A stretch of DNA of 4,503 nt from the UHGV virus genome UHGV-1974775. One strand, written 5' to 3'. Shown one piece after another: positions 1-4,503 of this stretch. Source of the stretch: a virus. The notes under the pieces are model-generated. The model made no database searches. It was given only the letters and a program-made list of their open reading frames with translations, and was not told where the DNA came from. Position 1 is the stretch's first letter. Each line of letters starts with the position of its first letter. Both the position numbers and the translations under genes were made by a program.

Positions 1-617
1 AAAAAATCGTAGCCAATTCCTGGCCTGTTACTCATAGCTGAAAACTCGGGTAGGCGATGTCCATAATGCTCCTCTGAACGGGAACCGGTGACTTTTTTAA
101 CACAGTATCGCGCCACATATGCAGCCGACTCAAAGCTAAAGCCAGCAATAACAGAAAAGCCAAAAGTCCAGCATCTTTCAAGAAGCGAAGACCTAAATAA
201 ATTAAATCTTCCAGCTTTATGCAGTGTCTTATCCGGAAAATCATATCCAAAAATAATCGCATGATAATGCGGTCGCTCTAATTTAGAGCCATATTCACCA
301 CAGCCGAAAAAACGAATTGAAATATCATCAACAGACAAAGCCTTACGCAAACGCTTCATAAAATCGGTGAAATGTTTACGAACGAGAGTTCCGCCTTCGG
401 GTAAATTCTCAGGCGAATAAGTCAGGGTGATAAAACAATTGTGATCGTGCATGTGGGCTTCATGAACACAGCGGGTCGCCCAGTCACGAGAATGGGCAAG
501 ACGGCAACCGATGCACTGACCGCAAGGCAACTGAATGAATTTAGCGCCACGTGACGGCGTGAAAAAAATCTTCCCCGATGGCATCTGGTACGCGTTTAAC
601 GGACGGGTACAAGCCAT
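1..617 (-). CDS. VP4: Replication initiation protein (HUH rolling-circle endonuclease), 5' portion (codons 1-205 plus two bases of codon 206); continues at 4257..4503 across the circular junction
   Basis: Hand translation of the minus strand from ATG at 617..615 gives MACTRPLNAYQMPSGKIFFTPSRGAKFIQLPCGQCIGCRLAHSRDWATRCVHEAHMHDHNCFITLTYSPENL...RPHYHAIIFGYDF...SAAYVARYCVKKVTGS...NRPGIGYDF, with no stop before position 1. It carries the three rolling-circle motifs: motif I CFITLTY (417..437), HUH motif PHYHAIIFG (246..272) and the two-tyrosine motif YVARYCVKK (93..119; compare phiX174 gene A YVAKYVNKK). SD GGAGG at 628..624, 6 nt before the ATG. Not in the ORF track because no stop falls inside the window. 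Confidence 0.88.
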   Translation of the reverse strand, partial: MACTRPLNAYQMPSGKIFFTPSRGAKFIQLPCGQCIGCRLAHSRDWATRCVHEAHMHDHNCFITLTYSPENLPEGGTLVRKHFTDFMKRLRKALSVDDISIRFFGCGEYGSKLERPHYHAIIFGYDFPDKTLHKAGRFNLFRSSLLERCWTFGFSVIAGFSFESAAYVARYCVKKVTGSRSEEHYGHRLPEFSAMSNRPGIGYDF

Positions 618-638
618 GACACACCTCCATAATTCACG

Positions 639-660
639 TATGCGCACCTTGGTGCGCATA
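639..660. repeat. Perfect inverted repeat TATGCGCACC-tt-GGTGCGCATA; its right arm is the XerC-binding arm of the dif-like site
   Basis: rc(639..648) = 651..660 exactly (10 nt arms, GC-rich). It would fold into a hairpin in the ssDNA genome and in the rep 5' leader, about 10 nt upstream of the rep SD. Confidence 0.7.
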
Positions 661-678
661 ATGTATATTTAGTTTAAC
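651..678. other. dif-like XerC/XerD recombination site (putative attP for host-Xer-mediated integration)
   Basis: Plus strand GGTGCGCATAA-TGTATA-TTTAGTTTAAC compared with canonical E. coli dif GGTGCGCATAA-TGTATA-TTATGTTAAAT (as I recall it): XerC arm 11/11, central region 6/6, XerD arm 7/11, total 24/28. It lies in the VP8-rep intergenic region. Confidence 0.75.
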
Positions 679-692
679 AAAAACAACGACTT

Positions 693-720
693 ACGATAAT
701 TATCGTAGATCGTTACGATC
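693..720. repeat. Two adjacent palindromes ACGATAATTATCGT (693..706) and GATCGTtACGATC (708..720) sharing the half-site ACGAT/ATCGT; contains two GATC sites (708..711, 717..720)
   Basis: Both palindromes are visible directly in the sequence: four copies of the pentamer ACGAT/ATCGT in alternating orientation within 28 nt, overlapping the candidate rep promoter spacer and -10. Confidence 0.6.
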
Positions 721-731
721 AACTTTGTCAA
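702..731 (-). promoter_or_regulatory. Candidate sigma70-type promoter for rep: -35 TTGACA (731..726), 18-nt spacer, -10 TACGAT (707..702)
   Basis: Minus strand reads TGA(VP8 stop)-TTGACA-aagttgatcgtaacgatc-TACGAT. The -35 is a perfect consensus; the -10 matches TATAAT at 4 of 6 positions including the key T1, A2 and T6. Identified by eye only. Confidence 0.35.
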
Positions 732-851
732 TCAAAGACGAATACCGCCACGCATCGAACGGGCTTTAAAGTTTCGCTTATGCGTCTTTGCGTACTTACG
801 GAACGAACGACGAGAAGAACGCTTGGACATACGACGGCGAGAACGAGCCAT
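732..851 (-). CDS. VP8: Small arginine-rich DNA-binding protein (VP8/J-like), 39 aa
   Basis: Hand translation of minus strand 851..732 gives MARSRRRMSKRSSRRSFRKYAKTHKRNFKARSMRGGIRL, followed by TGA (734..732). About 40% of residues are Arg or Lys (11 R, 5 K in 39 aa). The C-terminal MRGGIRL resembles the C-terminus I recall for the Chlamydia-phage small basic ORF8 protein. ATG is 1 nt after the VP2 stop (TAA 855..853), with GGAGG at 860..856. Absent from the ORF track, probably because it is below the length cutoff. Confidence 0.72.
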   Translation of the reverse strand: MARSRRRMSKRSSRRSFRKYAKTHKRNFKARSMRGGIRL

Positions 852-852
852 A

Positions 853-1635
853 TTACCTCCTAGGGGTTACTCGGAAAAACAGGGGGGAAGAATCCCCCCT
901 TTGGTTTACGGACTTAGCACTATTAGAATCGCGAAAGCCAAAGCCATCAAGACCTGAAATACGACGTAACCAACTACCAATCGCATTACCTTGTCCGACA
1001 AACCCTTTCCCTTGAGAGTCATAATTAACCTTAAGTGATTGAGCACCAGTCGGTGTATTCAAATAATCAGCCAGAACCTTGTCCTGAACAGTTTGATACT
1101 GTGTTCTAATCCGCTGCGCAGAACTGAGGCCTGTCTGTGCTTCAATATTGGCACGACGAGAAGCCTCGGTCAAAACCTGCTGATTAATCAGATTCGACTG
1201 CGATCGCATGTTATCGGCACTCTGGATAGCCTGGTCAGCCTGAGCCGTTTTAAGACGCACATCAGCCGCGCTATTCGCAATCTGGTTACGTTGTAACGCA
1301 ATCTGAGACTCAATGCCTTCACGGGCAACCTTTTGCTGCTCACGCTTCGTCAGAGCGTCGAACGCGGCAACGGCAGAGTTAACCGCACCAGAATAATCGG
1401 CAGGGGCAGCCTGCTGAATACCGGAAGAACTGACGGAACCAAGACCACCGGAACCATTAACGGCCAGAATCGGGTTAAGACCTGCTTTTCGCAAATCCTG
1501 TACGCGGTACTGCATACCGTTTTTGGCCAAATCCATCGTTAACTTGTTCGCCTGAGCGGCGTTCTGCTGGGCAGAGTGGGCACCAAGAAGAGAACCGGCA
1601 ACGGAACCTACAGCACCTGCAATTGCTCCCCACAT
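853..1635 (-). CDS. VP2: Minor capsid / DNA pilot protein
   Basis: 260-aa ORF immediately downstream of VP1 on the same strand. It has a Gly/Ala/Ser-rich N-terminus, the motif YRVQDLRKAGLNPILAV (the AGLNP motif recalled from Microviridae pilot proteins) and a Gln/Ala-rich central region that looks coiled-coil-like. SD GAGGTG lies 5 nt upstream of the ATG at 1635. Confidence 0.78.
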   Translation of the reverse strand: MWGAIAGAVGSVAGSLLGAHSAQQNAAQANKLTMDLAKNGMQYRVQDLRKAGLNPILAVNGSGGLGSVSSSGIQQAAPADYSGAVNSAVAAFDALTKREQQKVAREGIESQIALQRNQIANSAADVRLKTAQADQAIQSADNMRSQSNLINQQVLTEASRRANIEAQTGLSSAQRIRTQYQTVQDKVLADYLNTPTGAQSLKVNYDSQGKGFVGQGNAIGSWLRRISGLDGFGFRDSNSAKSVNQRGDSSPLFFRVTPRR

Positions 1636-1649
1636 AATTTCACCTCATG

Positions 1650-1672
1650 AAAAAAAGGCCTCCGAAGAGGCC
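1650..1672 (-). terminator. Rho-independent terminator/attenuator between VP1 and VP2
   Basis: On the minus-strand transcript, 13 nt after the VP1 stop (TAA 1688..1686): GGCCUC-UUCG-GAGGCC (6-bp GC-rich stem 1657..1662/1667..1672 with a UUCG tetraloop) followed directly by seven U (1656..1650). The VP2 SD and ATG follow 14 nt later. Confidence 0.6.
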
Positions 1673-3392: not shown

Positions 3393-3421
3393 ACTATACA
3401 AACCACTGTATAAACTGACAC
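3393..3421 (-). promoter_or_regulatory. Weak candidate promoter upstream of VP1: -35 GTGTCA (3421..3416), 17-nt spacer, -10 TATAGT (3398..3393)
   Basis: By-eye match on the minus strand: -35 matches TTGACA at 4/6 and -10 matches TATAAT at 5/6, with a 17-nt spacer; about 28 nt upstream of the VP1 ATG. Confidence 0.25.
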
Positions 3422-3465
3422 CTTTTTACAGGCTTCGTGGGAGCCGCCTGTAAGTTTCGGTGTCA

Positions 3466-3502
3466 CCTGGCACAGTTACATCAAGTAGGGCACTGTGCCA
3501 GG
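3466..3502. repeat. Perfect 11-bp inverted repeat (stem-loop) in the VP3-VP1 intergenic region
   Basis: CCTGGCACAGT (3466..3476) pairs with ACTGTGCCAGG (3492..3502); loop of 15 nt (3477..3491). Located 9 nt downstream of the VP3 stop on the coding strand, with no U-run after it. Confidence 0.65.
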
Positions 3503-4020: not shown

Positions 4021-4270
4021 TTTCAGAATCCTTCAGAAAGGCCGGAGTAGCTTCACAAACATAAACACGGTCAACGCTGACCGGAATAAGCTGTTCACCC
4101 TCAAAATCAAACGAAGTTACGCGATACAACGCAAAATCAGTACGCTGCATGCGGTTACAAAACGCATGCAATTGACCTTTCGCAATACCATCATGCTGAG
4201 CCATAAACATATAAACATCAGCATTAATCAGCTTGTCGTGAAATACATAAACTGCATCAGAGTGAGCCAT
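4001..4270 (-). CDS. Hypothetical 89-aa protein at the position occupied by VP5 in gokushoviruses (between rep and scaffold genes)
   Basis: ATG at 4270..4268 preceded by SD GAGGA with a 9-nt spacer (rc of 4271..4290 = aatgatGAGGAaattagaaa). The start overlaps the rep stop by 14 nt and the 3' end overlaps the VP3 start by 20 nt, a compact arrangement typical of Microviridae. I do not recognise the sequence itself, so the call is positional. Confidence 0.5.
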   Translation of the reverse strand: MAHSDAVYVFHDKLINADVYMFMAQHDGIAKGQLHAFCNRMQRTDFALYRVTSFDFEGEQLIPVSVDRVYVCEATPAFLKDSENAYIEA

Positions 4271-4503
4271 TTTCTAATTTCCTCATCATTCGCTGGAATT
4301 TAACCAGATTAAATTTATCTAAATCCTGCAAACGCCACGGGTCTAATACCTGAGCATTTAACTGGCGCTTTTCTTTATTTTGCTGCAACTTTTCCAAATC
4401 ACAGCCTGATAATAACTTGTCATAATAGCGGGGCGGTTTTATCTGACGACCGCCACGACCAATACACGCATCTGAATTAACTATGTCATCGTAATACTCC
4501 ATA
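4257..4503 (-). CDS. VP4: Replication initiation protein, 3' portion (last 81 codons plus stop), contiguous in frame with 1..617 if the molecule is circular
   Basis: ORF-track 81-aa ORF (MEYYDDIVNSDACIGRGGRQIKPPRYYDKLL...). Its first codon (4502..4500) sits immediately after the junction codon formed by positions 2,1,4503 (aaa on the plus strand = TTT, Phe), so the reading frame runs ...GIGYDFF-MEYYDD... with no stop. The combined protein is 287 aa. Confidence 0.72.
   Translation of the reverse strand, partial: MEYYDDIVNSDACIGRGGRQIKPPRYYDKLLSGCDLEKLQQNKEKRQLNAQVLDPWRLQDLDKFNLVKFQRMMRKLENGSL

What the first reader, a model, noticed from the sequence alone, without database searches (positions are those of the whole stretch)
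693..731. Palindromic ACGAT/GATC block overlapping a candidate rep promoter: possible operator or methylation-sensitive control region
Two abutting palindromes (ACGATAATTATCGT and GATCGTtACGATC) give four ACGAT/ATCGT half-sites in 28 nt, and two Dam-type GATC sites 9 nt apart. They overlap the spacer and -10 of a consensus -35 TTGACA promoter directed at rep. Dyad-symmetric sites over a promoter are the classic layout of a repressor operator, and paired GATC sites are the substrate for SeqA/Dam-dependent control in enterobacteria. This could be where rep expression is shut down in the integrated state or tied to replication, or it could be the rolling-circle origin recognised by Rep.
Basis: inference. 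Interest (0 to 1): 0.5.

Follow-up and report, generated by a model that had tools for sequence, protein, structure and literature searches.

The report
Promoter and conserved Dam-site palindrome beside attP
In this small temperate single-stranded-DNA phage of E. coli, the flagged palindromes sit in a likely promoter for the replication gene; only one palindrome, which carries two Dam methylation sites, is kept by evolution, and the chromosomal integration site lies between this promoter and the gene.

Summary
The window is a complete circular enterogokushovirus, 92% identical to Escherichia phage EC6098, with all genes on the minus strand. The block lies between VP8 and rep (VP4).

Three parts behave differently in relatives.
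1. TTGACA-18-TACGAT is the best sigma-70 match on the coding strand. Most close relatives have TATGAT. A diverged lineage keeps the -35, the spacing and the key -10 bases.
2. The ACGATAATTATCGT palindrome is perfect in only three sequences and is lost elsewhere, so it is probably not an operator.
3. GATCG-N3-CGATC is invariant in seven lineage types whose flanks and centre are almost fully variable. These genomes are about threefold depleted in GATC.

The whole block is missing from relatives whose Rep is 92-94% identical to the window's, so it is not the rolling-circle origin. A covarying stem-loop with invariant ACTTGAT at 3459-3502 is the better origin candidate.

The phage dif-like attP (651-678) lies between the block and rep. 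Integration therefore cuts rep off from this promoter.

Best reading: an accessory early-promoter module whose selected core is a Dam/SeqA-type or other host-read site. The function is inferred and untested.

The parts
726..731 (-). -35 hexamer TTGACA (6/6), immediately after the VP8 stop codon (732-734)
   Evidence: Invariant in the G1 sequences and in the diverged L120 type. Replaced by TCAAAT, TTAATT, TTAGTT or TTAATA in other lineages.
708..720 (.). Palindrome 2: GATCG-N3-CGATC, with two Dam-type GATC sites (708-711 and 717-720). It fills the 13 spacer bases that abut the -10.
   Evidence: The arms are invariant (0/10 variable columns) across 7 lineage types. The centre (3/3) and the flanks (10/11 and 11/12) vary.
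702..707 (-). -10 hexamer TACGAT (TATGAT in most close relatives, TAATAT in L120, L131 and L139)
692..707 (.). Palindrome 1: TACGATAATTATCGTA. It is lineage-specific; its 5' arm on the coding strand is the -10 hexamer.
   Evidence: Perfect only in the window, L091 and L129. Imperfect in other G1 sequences and absent from G2, L130, L131, L138 and L139. The ssDNA hairpin is -3.3 kcal/mol here and -0.1 in the TATGAT relatives.
651..678 (+). Phage dif-like attP: XerC arm GGTGCGCATAA (651-661), spacer TGTATA (662-667), degenerate XerD arm TTTAGTTTAAC (668-678). It lies between the block and rep.
   Evidence: Read directly. It matches the bacterial dif at prophage left junctions. EC6098 carries a 'dif-motif' annotation. 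Function shown for EC6098 in PMC7062461.
639..660 (.). Perfect hairpin TATGCGCACC-tt-GGTGCGCATA, an inverted copy of the XerC arm. It would lie in the 5' leader of a rep transcript started at the block.
   Evidence: (I4). Present in G1, L120, L130 and L138; absent from G2, G3, L131 and L139.
615..628 (-). Shine-Dalgarno GGAGGTG (628..622) and the rep (VP4) start codon ATG (617..615). rep runs 617..1 and then 4503..4257.
   Evidence: 864 nt, 287 aa across the circular junction
732..851 (-). VP8, a 39-aa arginine-rich putative DNA-binding protein. Palindrome 2 starts 11 nt after its stop codon.

Best explanation
The block is a non-essential, lineage-variable regulatory module at the VP8/attP junction of a temperate gokushovirus.

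In this lineage it carries the main sigma-70 promoter of the early operon (rep-VP5-VP3): TTGACA, an 18-nt spacer, then TACGAT or TATGAT. Transcription would start near position 695 on the minus strand. It would run through the dif-like attP and a leader hairpin into rep.

The evolutionarily selected core is the 13-bp palindrome GATCG-N3-CGATC in the promoter spacer. Its second GATC occupies positions -16 to -13, directly against the -10. I propose that GATC-reading host machinery (Dam methylation and/or SeqA on hemimethylated DNA) reads it in duplex DNA. Promoter output would then depend on the methylation or replication state of the phage DNA, as at the IS10 and IS50 transposase promoters.

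The ACGATAATTATCGT palindrome is a by-product of the -10/AT-rich region and not an operator.

Because attP lies between the promoter and rep, XerCD integration disconnects rep from this promoter. Integration also disconnects rep from read-through out of VP8. Excision re-joins them. This gives repressor-free silencing of replication in the prophage.

Shown: the anatomy, the conservation pattern, GATC depletion and the prophage topology. Inferred: promoter activity, the Dam/SeqA read-out and the regulatory consequence.

My sub-estimates: promoter active 0.65; palindrome 2 under selection 0.9; read-out through Dam/SeqA 0.35.
For: - Promoter strength: it is the best sigma-70 match on the coding strand. 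It scores 10/12 here and 11/12 in most G1 relatives. Chance in the 114-nt intergenic region is about 0.01 and 0.0007 respectively.
- Promoter conservation: the diverged L120 type keeps TTGACA, the 18-nt spacing and T1, A2, T6 of the -10. Meanwhile 4 of the 5 spacer bases upstream of the palindrome differ.
- Only one other intergenic promoter-like site exists on the coding strand, upstream of VP1 (3421..3393). A strong terminator-like hairpin follows VP1 (1672..1657). The scan found no terminator-like site on the coding strand between the -10 and rep.
- Palindrome 2 conservation: arms vary in 0/10 columns against 24/26 for centre plus flanks, across 7 lineage types whose VP4 is 79-100% identical to the window's.
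- GATC depletion: 5 observed against 17.6 expected here, and 2-7 per genome in relatives. Gokushoviruses only distantly related to the window (VP4 about 50% identical) have 3.7 per kb, near expectation. The palindrome pair is kept in every block-bearing genome.
- PhiX174 avoids GATC, and its DNA is poorly methylated (PMC5014478).
- Two GATC sites in the IS50 transposase promoter give roughly 8-fold Dam control (PMC4265352).
- Topology: in every prophage examined the block sits at the VP8 end, followed by the phage dif and host DNA. rep sits at the other end, behind the bacterial dif.
- EC6098 lysogens yield fewer phage than carriers of circular DNA, and no repressor is known (PMC7062461).
Against: - No transcript, methylation or binding data exist for any of these phages.
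- Lineage G2 keeps the palindrome but has no -35 or -10 around it. L130 and L138 lack a -10 next to it. The palindrome therefore cannot act only through this promoter.
- The conserved unit is 5+5 bases, one more on each side than Dam, SeqA or MutH need.
- About half of the related lineages lack the block yet integrate, and at least one exists as a circular genome (mar4). Its contribution must be modulatory.
- The window's own -10 (TACGAT, 4/6) is weaker than its relatives', and an 18-nt spacer is suboptimal.
Confidence: 0.4

Rival explanations
1. GATCG-N3-CGATC is the operator of a sequence-specific dimeric DNA-binding protein that is unrelated to methylation. The protein could be a host factor or a phage protein such as VP5 or VP4. 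It would bind duplex DNA at the VP8/attP junction and repress or activate nearby promoters.
For: - The element has strict 5+3+5 dyad architecture with a free centre and invariant half-sites. The half-sites include one base beyond each GATC.
- It lies inside the promoter spacer in G1 and L120. It lies 6-9 nt upstream of a weak TTAAC(A/C/G)-16/18-TACATT promoter-like site in the other lineages.
- VP5 gives a weak hit to a PHROG annotated 'DNA binding protein'.
Against: - No phage protein has a recognisable sequence-specific DNA-binding domain.
- VP4 and VP5 are shared with genomes that lack the site.
- I could recall no E. coli regulator with this site, and a literature search found none.
- Ten conserved bases is short for a typical operator.
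Confidence: 0.2
2. The palindrome acts at the single-stranded stage. In the packaged (coding) strand it folds into a 5-bp stem with a 3-nt loop. This would present one duplex GATC with a G:C clamp, or serve as a priming signal for complementary-strand synthesis. Like the minus-strand origins of M13 or rolling-circle plasmids, it would be helpful but dispensable.
For: - All variation among lineages falls in the 3-nt loop (TAA, TGA, TAT, TCT, ACA, TTT) and none in the stem.
- The fold is predicted in every variant.
- Dispensability is compatible with known single-strand origins (my knowledge).
Against: - The hairpin is weak, -2.9 to -4.1 kcal/mol, with z-scores of only -1.2 to -2.0.
- There is no covariation in the stem. 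Conservation is of sequence, not of pairing.
- In the 161-nt ssDNA fold the right arm is used by a competing structure instead.
- No CTG primase start or other known priming motif is conserved next to it (by eye).
Confidence: 0.12
3. The block is an accessory element of the attP site. It would modulate XerCD integration or excision, for example by binding a host factor next to the degenerate XerD arm.
For: - It lies 16-29 nt from the XerD arm in every block-bearing lineage.
- All seven palindrome-bearing lineage types have a dif spacer identical to the host's (TATACA on the coding strand). Most lineages without the palindrome have a divergent spacer.
Against: - Lineages without it are also found integrated at dif.
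- The distance to the XerD arm is variable, whereas the distance to the VP8 stop is fixed.
- The association with the spacer may only reflect inheritance of one small module.
- I saw no ArgR, ArcA or PepA-type accessory sequence (by eye).
- EC6098 dif deletions alone abolish integration (PMC7062461). That shows dif is necessary. It says nothing about a need for the block.
Confidence: 0.08
4. The block is the rolling-circle (plus-strand) origin that Rep/VP4 recognises and nicks.
For: - It is palindromic and non-coding, and lies next to rep.
- In G1 the sequence AAAGTTGATCG loosely resembles the phiX174 nick context CAACTTGATA (my reading).
Against: - It is absent from mar4, L009, L011, L094 and L126. 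Their VP4 is 92-94% identical to the window's where measured, within the range of block-bearing genomes.
- mar4 was recovered as circular DNA at about 193x coverage.
- TTGAT is not kept in the other block types.
- A stem-loop at 3459-3502 has an invariant ACTTGAT loop and compensatory changes at 7 of 7 stem pairs. It is present in every enterogokushovirus type that spans that region and in most distant gokushoviruses.
Confidence: 0.03
5. Palindrome 1 (ACGATAATTATCGT) and the four ACGAT half-sites form a repressor operator over the -10.
For: - It is a perfect 16-nt dyad centred over the -10 in the window.
- An extended 30-nt imperfect dyad is also present (I1).
Against: - The dyad is perfect only in the window, L091 and L129.
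- Twelve other G1 sequences carry T for C (TATGAT). This breaks the dyad and improves the -10. L003 has TATGGT.
- L120 keeps only ATAATTAT, and five other lineages lack it altogether.
- No repressor gene is present.
Confidence: 0.04

Closest known systems
Dam-sensitive transposase promoters of IS10 (pIN) and IS50/Tn5 (T1)
   Same: - A mobile element's key replication or transposition gene is driven by a sigma-70 promoter with GATC site(s) in or against the -10.
- IS50 has two GATC sites, and destroying them raises the transcript about 8-fold (PMC4265352).
- Expression is thereby tied to hemimethylated, unmethylated or freshly replicated DNA.
   Different: - Here the two GATC sites form a 13-bp palindrome in the spacer (-25..-22 and -16..-13), not inside the hexamers.
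- One extra base per arm is conserved.
- One lineage keeps the palindrome without the promoter.
- No methylation dependence has been measured.
Circle-dependent expression in Tn916 and junction promoters of IS911/IS30-type circles
   Same: Excision and circularisation bring a promoter at one end of the element next to genes at the other end. Those genes are therefore silent while the element is integrated (my knowledge).
   Different: - Here both promoter hexamers are on one side of the joint, and the joint is a XerCD dif-like site.
- The element is a ssDNA phage.
- The effect is inferred from topology only.
Lambda int/sib retroregulation (attP placed between a gene and its control element)
   Same: Integration at attP separates a gene from a cis-acting control element, so its expression differs between the prophage and circular states (my knowledge).
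   Different: Lambda separates a 3' RNA-processing site from int. Here a 5' promoter would be separated from rep.
SeqA binding to paired hemimethylated GATC sites (oriC sequestration, lambda pR control)
   Same: Two GATC sites within about one helical turn are the minimal SeqA substrate (my knowledge). The host is Dam-positive, and the phage genome is otherwise purged of GATC.
   Different: No cluster of more than two sites is present. The 9-bp spacing is slightly short of a helical turn. Binding is untested.
PhiX174 gene-A origin (CAACTTG|ATATTAATAAC) and pC194-type nick sites
   Same: The block is a non-coding element next to rep, with a weak TTGAT resemblance in G1.
   Different: The block fails the test of presence in all genomes that encode a near-identical Rep. 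The real phiX-like ACTTGAT motif sits in a covarying stem-loop at 3459-3502.
EC6098 phage dif-motif (Kirchberger & Ochman 2020)
   Same: Same genus and same VP8-dif-VP4 arrangement. The EC6098 block is 98% identical to the window's over 56 nt.
   Different: The paper describes the dif motif and integration. It does not mention promoters, GATC sites or these palindromes. The GenBank record leaves the block unannotated.

Membership tests
Sigma-70 promoter | -35 hexamer close to TTGACA | tested here: met
   TTGACA, 6/6, at 731..726. Conserved in G1 and L120.
Sigma-70 promoter | -10 hexamer with A2 and T6, spaced 16-18 nt from the -35 | tested here: met
   TACGAT (4/6) after an 18-nt spacer. TATGAT (5/6) in most G1 sequences; TAATAT in L120.
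Sigma-70 promoter | Located upstream of a gene on the same strand, with no intervening terminator | tested here: met
   About 85 nt upstream of the rep ATG. The scan found no terminator-like site on the minus strand between 702 and 617.
Sigma-70 promoter | Mapped transcription start or RNA polymerase dependence | not testable with these tools
   No transcript data found for any enterogokushovirus.
Dam-regulated promoter (IS10/IS50 type) | GATC site(s) overlapping promoter elements or a regulator site | tested here: met
   GATC at 717-720 (-25..-22) and 708-711 (-16..-13, abutting the -10).
Dam-regulated promoter (IS10/IS50 type) | GATC sites conserved against the genomic background | tested here: met
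   Arms are invariant in 7 lineage types. The genome is about 3-fold GATC-depleted.
Dam-regulated promoter (IS10/IS50 type) | Promoter activity changes with methylation state | not testable with these tools
   Needs dam+/dam- reporter assays.
Dam-regulated promoter (IS10/IS50 type) | GATC element always accompanied by the promoter | tested here: not met
   G2, L130 and L138 keep the palindrome without a flanking -35/-10.
Repressor operator over a promoter | Dyad-symmetric half-sites conserved among relatives | tested here: inconclusive
   Palindrome 1 half-sites are not conserved. Palindrome 2 half-sites are conserved.
Repressor operator over a promoter | A cognate repressor encoded by the element | tested here: not met
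   Pfam and PHROG scans of the annotated proteins and five extra ORFs show no HTH or repressor family. VP5 gives only a weak 'DNA binding protein' PHROG hit.
Rolling-circle plus-strand origin of Microviridae | Present in every genome that encodes the same or a near-identical Rep | tested here: not met
   Absent from mar4, L009, L011 and L126, whose VP4 is 92-94% identical to the window's, and from L094 (VP4 not compared).
Rolling-circle plus-strand origin of Microviridae | Conserved nick-site motif of the phiX/pC194 type | tested here: not met
   TTGAT occurs only in G1. Invariant ACTTGAT is found instead in the stem-loop at 3459-3502.
SeqA target | At least two GATC sites within about 30 bp | tested here: met
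   Two sites, 9 bp start to start.
SeqA target | Hemimethylated state and SeqA binding | not testable with these tools
   Needs EMSA or ChIP.
Xer accessory sequences (cer/psi type) | Required for recombination at the adjacent core site | tested here: not met
   Lineages without the block are found integrated at dif.

The most novel reading that the evidence does not exclude
GATCG-N3-CGATC is an epigenetic switch of a repressor-less temperate ssDNA phage. The Dam methylation state of the two GATC sites would be read by SeqA or RNA polymerase. In the packaged strand the two sites could even be displayed as a self-paired duplex GATC. This state would tell the phage whether its DNA is freshly infecting or replicating, or long resident. 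It would set rep expression accordingly. Together with the attP-split promoter, it would decide between productive replication, the carrier state and the quiescent prophage. This would be the first methylation-based lifestyle control described in Microviridae.
Probability: 0.2. Interest if true: 0.7.

Novelty: new variant of a known kind. Interest (0 to 1): 0.5.

Why it matters
Enterogokushoviruses are the only cultivable temperate gokushoviruses. They encode six proteins and no repressor. How they stay quiet as prophages or persist as carriers is unexplained (PMC7062461).

This work yields two concrete, cheap-to-test leads in the EC6098 system:
- a probable early promoter that integration at dif disconnects from rep;
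- a deeply conserved Dam-site palindrome, kept in genomes that otherwise purge GATC.

It also removes the block from consideration as the replication origin and points to a much better origin candidate.

Tried and rejected
- Host-DNA capture: BLAST of the 57-nt block found it only in gokushovirus prophages among 5,426 E. coli genomes, and only in EC6098 among the phages. There is no evidence that it was captured from host DNA next to dif.
- Gapped pattern scans: the metagenome scan gave 5 true loci among 13 hits. The genome-contig scan gave only chance hits, mostly in Burkholderiales.
- IMG/VR pattern scans added nothing.
- The window's own Rep could not be looked up because it spans the window ends.
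- Rfam: there was no match in the region. The only hit was a weak, sub-threshold suhB match at 1642-1713.
- Hairpin roles: the hairpins are thermodynamically marginal. The whole-region ssDNA fold has z = -2.2, mostly due to the XerC-arm hairpin. The RNA leader fold is not significant.
- Known binding sites compared by eye, none convincing: Fur box (11/19 at best), ARG box, FNR, IHF, DnaA box, matS (same 5+3+5 layout, different sequence), Ter, GlpR/GntR-type sites, LexA.
- Literature searches for a CGATCG-type operator, for the ACTTGATG motif and for gokushovirus origins found nothing relevant.
- The single GATCG-N3-CGATC hit in a distant gokushovirus (L087) lies inside coding sequence and fits chance.

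Full report
WHAT THE WINDOW IS. The 4,503-nt window is a complete, circularly permuted enterogokushovirus genome (Microviridae, Gokushovirinae). It is 92% identical to Escherichia phage EC6098. It is 97.5-99.7% identical to a prophage in a metagenome contig, L091, whose VP4 is identical to the window's. All genes are on the minus strand: rep/VP4 (617..1 joined to 4503..4257; 287 aa), VP5, VP3, VP1, VP2 and VP8 (851..732). The packaged strand of Microviridae has mRNA sense (established knowledge). The viral ssDNA is therefore the minus strand of the window.

OBSERVATION. Palindrome 1 is in fact 16 nt, TACGATAATTATCGTA (692-707). Palindrome 2 is GATCGTTACGATC (708-720). GATC sites lie at 708 and 717. 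On the minus strand the promoter-like site is TTGACA (731..726), 18 nt, then TACGAT (707..702). Two abutting perfect palindromes of this size arose in 6 of 500 dinucleotide shuffles of the genome. GATCG-N3-CGATC is expected 0.01 times per genome.

Positions 651-678 (plus strand) read GGTGCGCATAA-TGTATA-TTTAGTTTAAC. This is the E. coli dif XerC arm and spacer, both exact, followed by a degenerate XerD arm (7 of 11 by my count). It corresponds to the phage dif-motif that Kirchberger & Ochman showed to be required for XerC/XerD-dependent integration of EC6098 (PMC7062461; annotated). On the coding strand the order is VP8 stop, -35, palindrome 2, -10/palindrome 1, attP, a 10-bp hairpin, Shine-Dalgarno sequence, rep.

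In every prophage I examined, the block stays at the VP8 end and is followed by the phage dif and host DNA. These prophages came from seven complete E. coli genomes, from metagenome contigs, and from ten further genomes found through the exact VP8 sequence. In E. coli the host DNA reached first is the 3' end of the convergent hipA gene. rep sits 4.5 kb away, behind the bacterial dif.

COMPARATIVE ANATOMY. I aligned the junction from about 35 related genomes. Reading the coding strand after the VP8 stop, the block falls into these types:
- G1 (window, EC6098 and about 15 others): TTGACA AAGTT GATCG-TAA-CGATC TA[T/C]GAT AATTATCGTAAG...
- L120: TTGACA TCTTC GATCG-TAT-CGATC TAATAT AATTATGTAAG...
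- G2 (six genomes): TCAAAT TCTTC GATCG-TGA-CGATC TCCAAA...
- L131 and L139 (VP4 79% and 78% identical to the window's): TTAATT or TTAGTT ... GATCG-ACA/TTT-CGATC TAATAT...
- L130 and L138 (VP4 84%): TTAATT or TTAATA ... GATCG-TCT/TTT-CGATC ATTTAT...
- No block at all: G3 (microvirus mar4, L009, L011, L094, L126), L012, L132/L133, L134, L135 and L140.

PROMOTER. TTGACA-18-TACGAT is the best sigma-70 match on the whole coding strand. A match of at least 10/12 in the 114-nt stretch upstream of rep is expected about 0.01 times. The 11/12 match of most G1 genomes (TATGAT) is expected about 0.0007 times. L120 is the only lineage diverged enough to test conservation. It keeps the -35 (6/6), the 18-nt spacing and positions 1, 2 and 6 of the -10, while 4 of the 5 spacer bases upstream of the palindrome differ.

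The only other intergenic promoter-like site on the coding strand precedes VP1 (3421..3393). A strong terminator-like hairpin follows VP1 (1672..1657). The simplest transcription map therefore has an early unit (rep-VP5-VP3) driven from the block and a late unit driven from the VP1 promoter. This map is inferred.

The other lineages lack this promoter. They have only weak TTAAC(A/C/G)-16/18-TACATT candidates that use the dif spacer as the -10.

PALINDROME 1. The perfect dyad exists only in the window, L091 and L129. Twelve other G1 sequences have T instead of C (TATGAT). That change breaks the dyad and improves the -10. L003 has TATGGT. L120 keeps only ATAATTAT, and the other five lineages have nothing. 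As an ssDNA hairpin it is worth -3.3 kcal/mol here and -0.1 kcal/mol in the TATGAT relatives. I conclude that it is a by-product of the -10/AT-rich region and not an operator.

PALINDROME 2. Across seven lineage types, the ten arm positions never vary. By contrast 3/3 centre positions, 10/11 positions upstream and 11/12 positions downstream do vary. The element starts 11 nt after the VP8 stop in six of the seven types.

These genomes are strongly depleted in GATC. The window has 5 against 17.6 +/- 3.8 expected, and relatives have 2-7. Gokushoviruses only distantly related to the window (VP4 about 50% identical) have 3.7 per kb, close to expectation. The pair in the palindrome is kept in every block-bearing genome; L003 has only three GATC sites in total, two of them this pair. 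GATC avoidance is classical for enterobacterial microviruses. PhiX174 has none, and its DNA is poorly methylated (PMC5014478). Retention of two sites in non-coding DNA therefore argues for a benefit.

The conservation is of sequence, not of pairing: there is no covariation, and the hairpin is marginal (-2.9 to -4.1 kcal/mol). This favours recognition in duplex DNA. In G1 and L120 the second GATC occupies -16..-13, against the -10. That is the zone of extended -10 contacts (my knowledge).

NOT THE ORIGIN. The block is absent from genomes whose Rep is 92-94% identical to the window's. That falls inside the 91.6-100% range of block-bearing G1 genomes. A G1 genome (L006) and a G2 genome (L007) share one identical Rep accession. 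Mar4, which lacks the block, was recovered as circular DNA at about 193x coverage from a viral nucleic-acid preparation (PMC8830333).

Independently, the VP3-VP1 intergenic region holds a stem-loop: CCTGGCACAGT-gccCTACTTGATGTA-ACTGTGCCAGG-TGACAC (window 3459-3502). It is present in every enterogokushovirus type whose locus spans that region, and in most distant gokushoviruses (78 of 141 loci). ACTTGAT and TGACA are invariant, and all 7 predicted stem pairs show compensatory changes. ACTTG|AT is the phiX174 gene-A nick context (my knowledge). This stem-loop is the better origin candidate. It also explains the 96-98% matches to unrelated microviruses.

NO REPRESSOR. Pfam and PHROG scans of the phage proteins and of five extra ORFs find no HTH or repressor family. 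VP5 gives only a weak hit to a PHROG annotated 'DNA binding protein'. The literature held here says nothing about promoters, GATC sites or these palindromes in EC6098.

MECHANISM (inferred). In circular DNA the block's promoter transcribes across attP into rep. After XerCD integration, rep-VP5-VP3 is separated from this promoter and from any read-through out of VP8. The prophage should then be unable to make Rep until XerCD excision re-joins the ends. This fits two reported findings: excision is continuous, and lysogens release fewer phage than carriers of circular DNA (PMC7062461).

The GATC palindrome most plausibly makes the region sensitive to Dam methylation or SeqA binding, as at the IS10 and IS50 transposase promoters. 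In IS50, two GATC sites give about 8-fold control (PMC4265352). Freshly made, under-methylated phage DNA and long-resident, fully methylated DNA would then differ in early expression.

There are caveats. G2, L130 and L138 keep the palindrome without this promoter. One extra base per arm is conserved. Half of the lineages do without the element. A methylation-independent binding protein, an ssDNA-stage role or an attP-accessory role therefore remain open.

VERDICT. It is directly testable in the EC6098 system.

Noticed in passing
window 3459-3502 (VP3-VP1 intergenic region; coding strand = minus): A stem-loop, CCTGGCACAGT / ACTGTGCCAGG, with an invariant ACTTGAT in the loop and a trailing TGACAC. 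It is found in 78 of 141 fetched loci, including distant gokushoviruses (VP4 about 50% identical). All 7 stem pairs show compensatory changes. The motif resembles the phiX174 and pC194 nick site, so this is probably the plus-strand origin of Gokushovirinae. I found no description of it in the searched literature.
   Followed up: partly
window 639-660: A perfect 10-bp inverted copy of the dif XerC arm (TATGCGCACC tt GGTGCGCATA) directly abuts attP, 11 nt upstream of the rep Shine-Dalgarno sequence. It is present in G1, L120, L130 and L138 and absent from other lineages. It could be a leader hairpin or a second XerC site. On the plus strand it scores as terminator-like.
   Followed up: partly
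window 662-667 and the equivalent dif spacers in loci L002-L140: All seven palindrome-bearing lineage types have a phage dif spacer identical to the host's (TATACA on the coding strand). Most lineages without the palindrome have divergent spacers (TTTACA, CGCTTG, GGTACA, GCAACA, TGTACA) that keep only the XerC-side ACA. This may mark two integration styles, or only shared ancestry of a small module.
   Followed up: no
L134 1186-9586 and L137 5501-11861: Two gokushovirus prophages sit in tandem at one dif locus. One copy in L134 has a different hairpin plus T-run (CATGCAC-N7-GTGCATG ATTTTATT) where the GATC palindrome sits in other lineages.
   Followed up: no
window 658-660 (ATG on minus strand inside the XerC arm): An in-frame ATG inside the dif XerC arm would add 14 residues to Rep. 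The EC6098 GenBank record annotates vp4 from that ATG (301 aa, overlapping the dif-motif), whereas RefSeq prophage annotations use the 287-aa start that has the strong Shine-Dalgarno sequence.
   Followed up: no
window 1657-1672 (minus) and 3393-3421 (minus): A strong intrinsic-terminator-like hairpin, GGCCTCTTCGGAGGCC followed by T7, sits right after VP1. A promoter-like GTGTCA-17-TATAGT sits upstream of VP1. Together they suggest a separate late transcription unit.
   Followed up: no
window 881-900: A perfect G6/C6 hairpin, AGGGGGGAAGAATCCCCCCT, scores as terminator-like on both strands and lies inside the 3' end of the VP2 ORF. Kirchberger & Ochman report the VP2 C-terminus and the VP2-VP8 region as hypervariable.
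   Followed up: no
window 443-446: This is the only GATC outside the palindrome that is shared by most relatives. It lies in rep coding sequence, at position 216 (239 in the G2 genomes L004 and L007) of the dif-anchored genomes.
   Followed up: no
L141 upstream of the bacterial dif (contig end): The Logan contig carries an Illumina adapter sequence (AGATCGGAAGAGCGTCGTGTAGG) next to the dif site. That flank is an assembly artefact.
   Followed up: no
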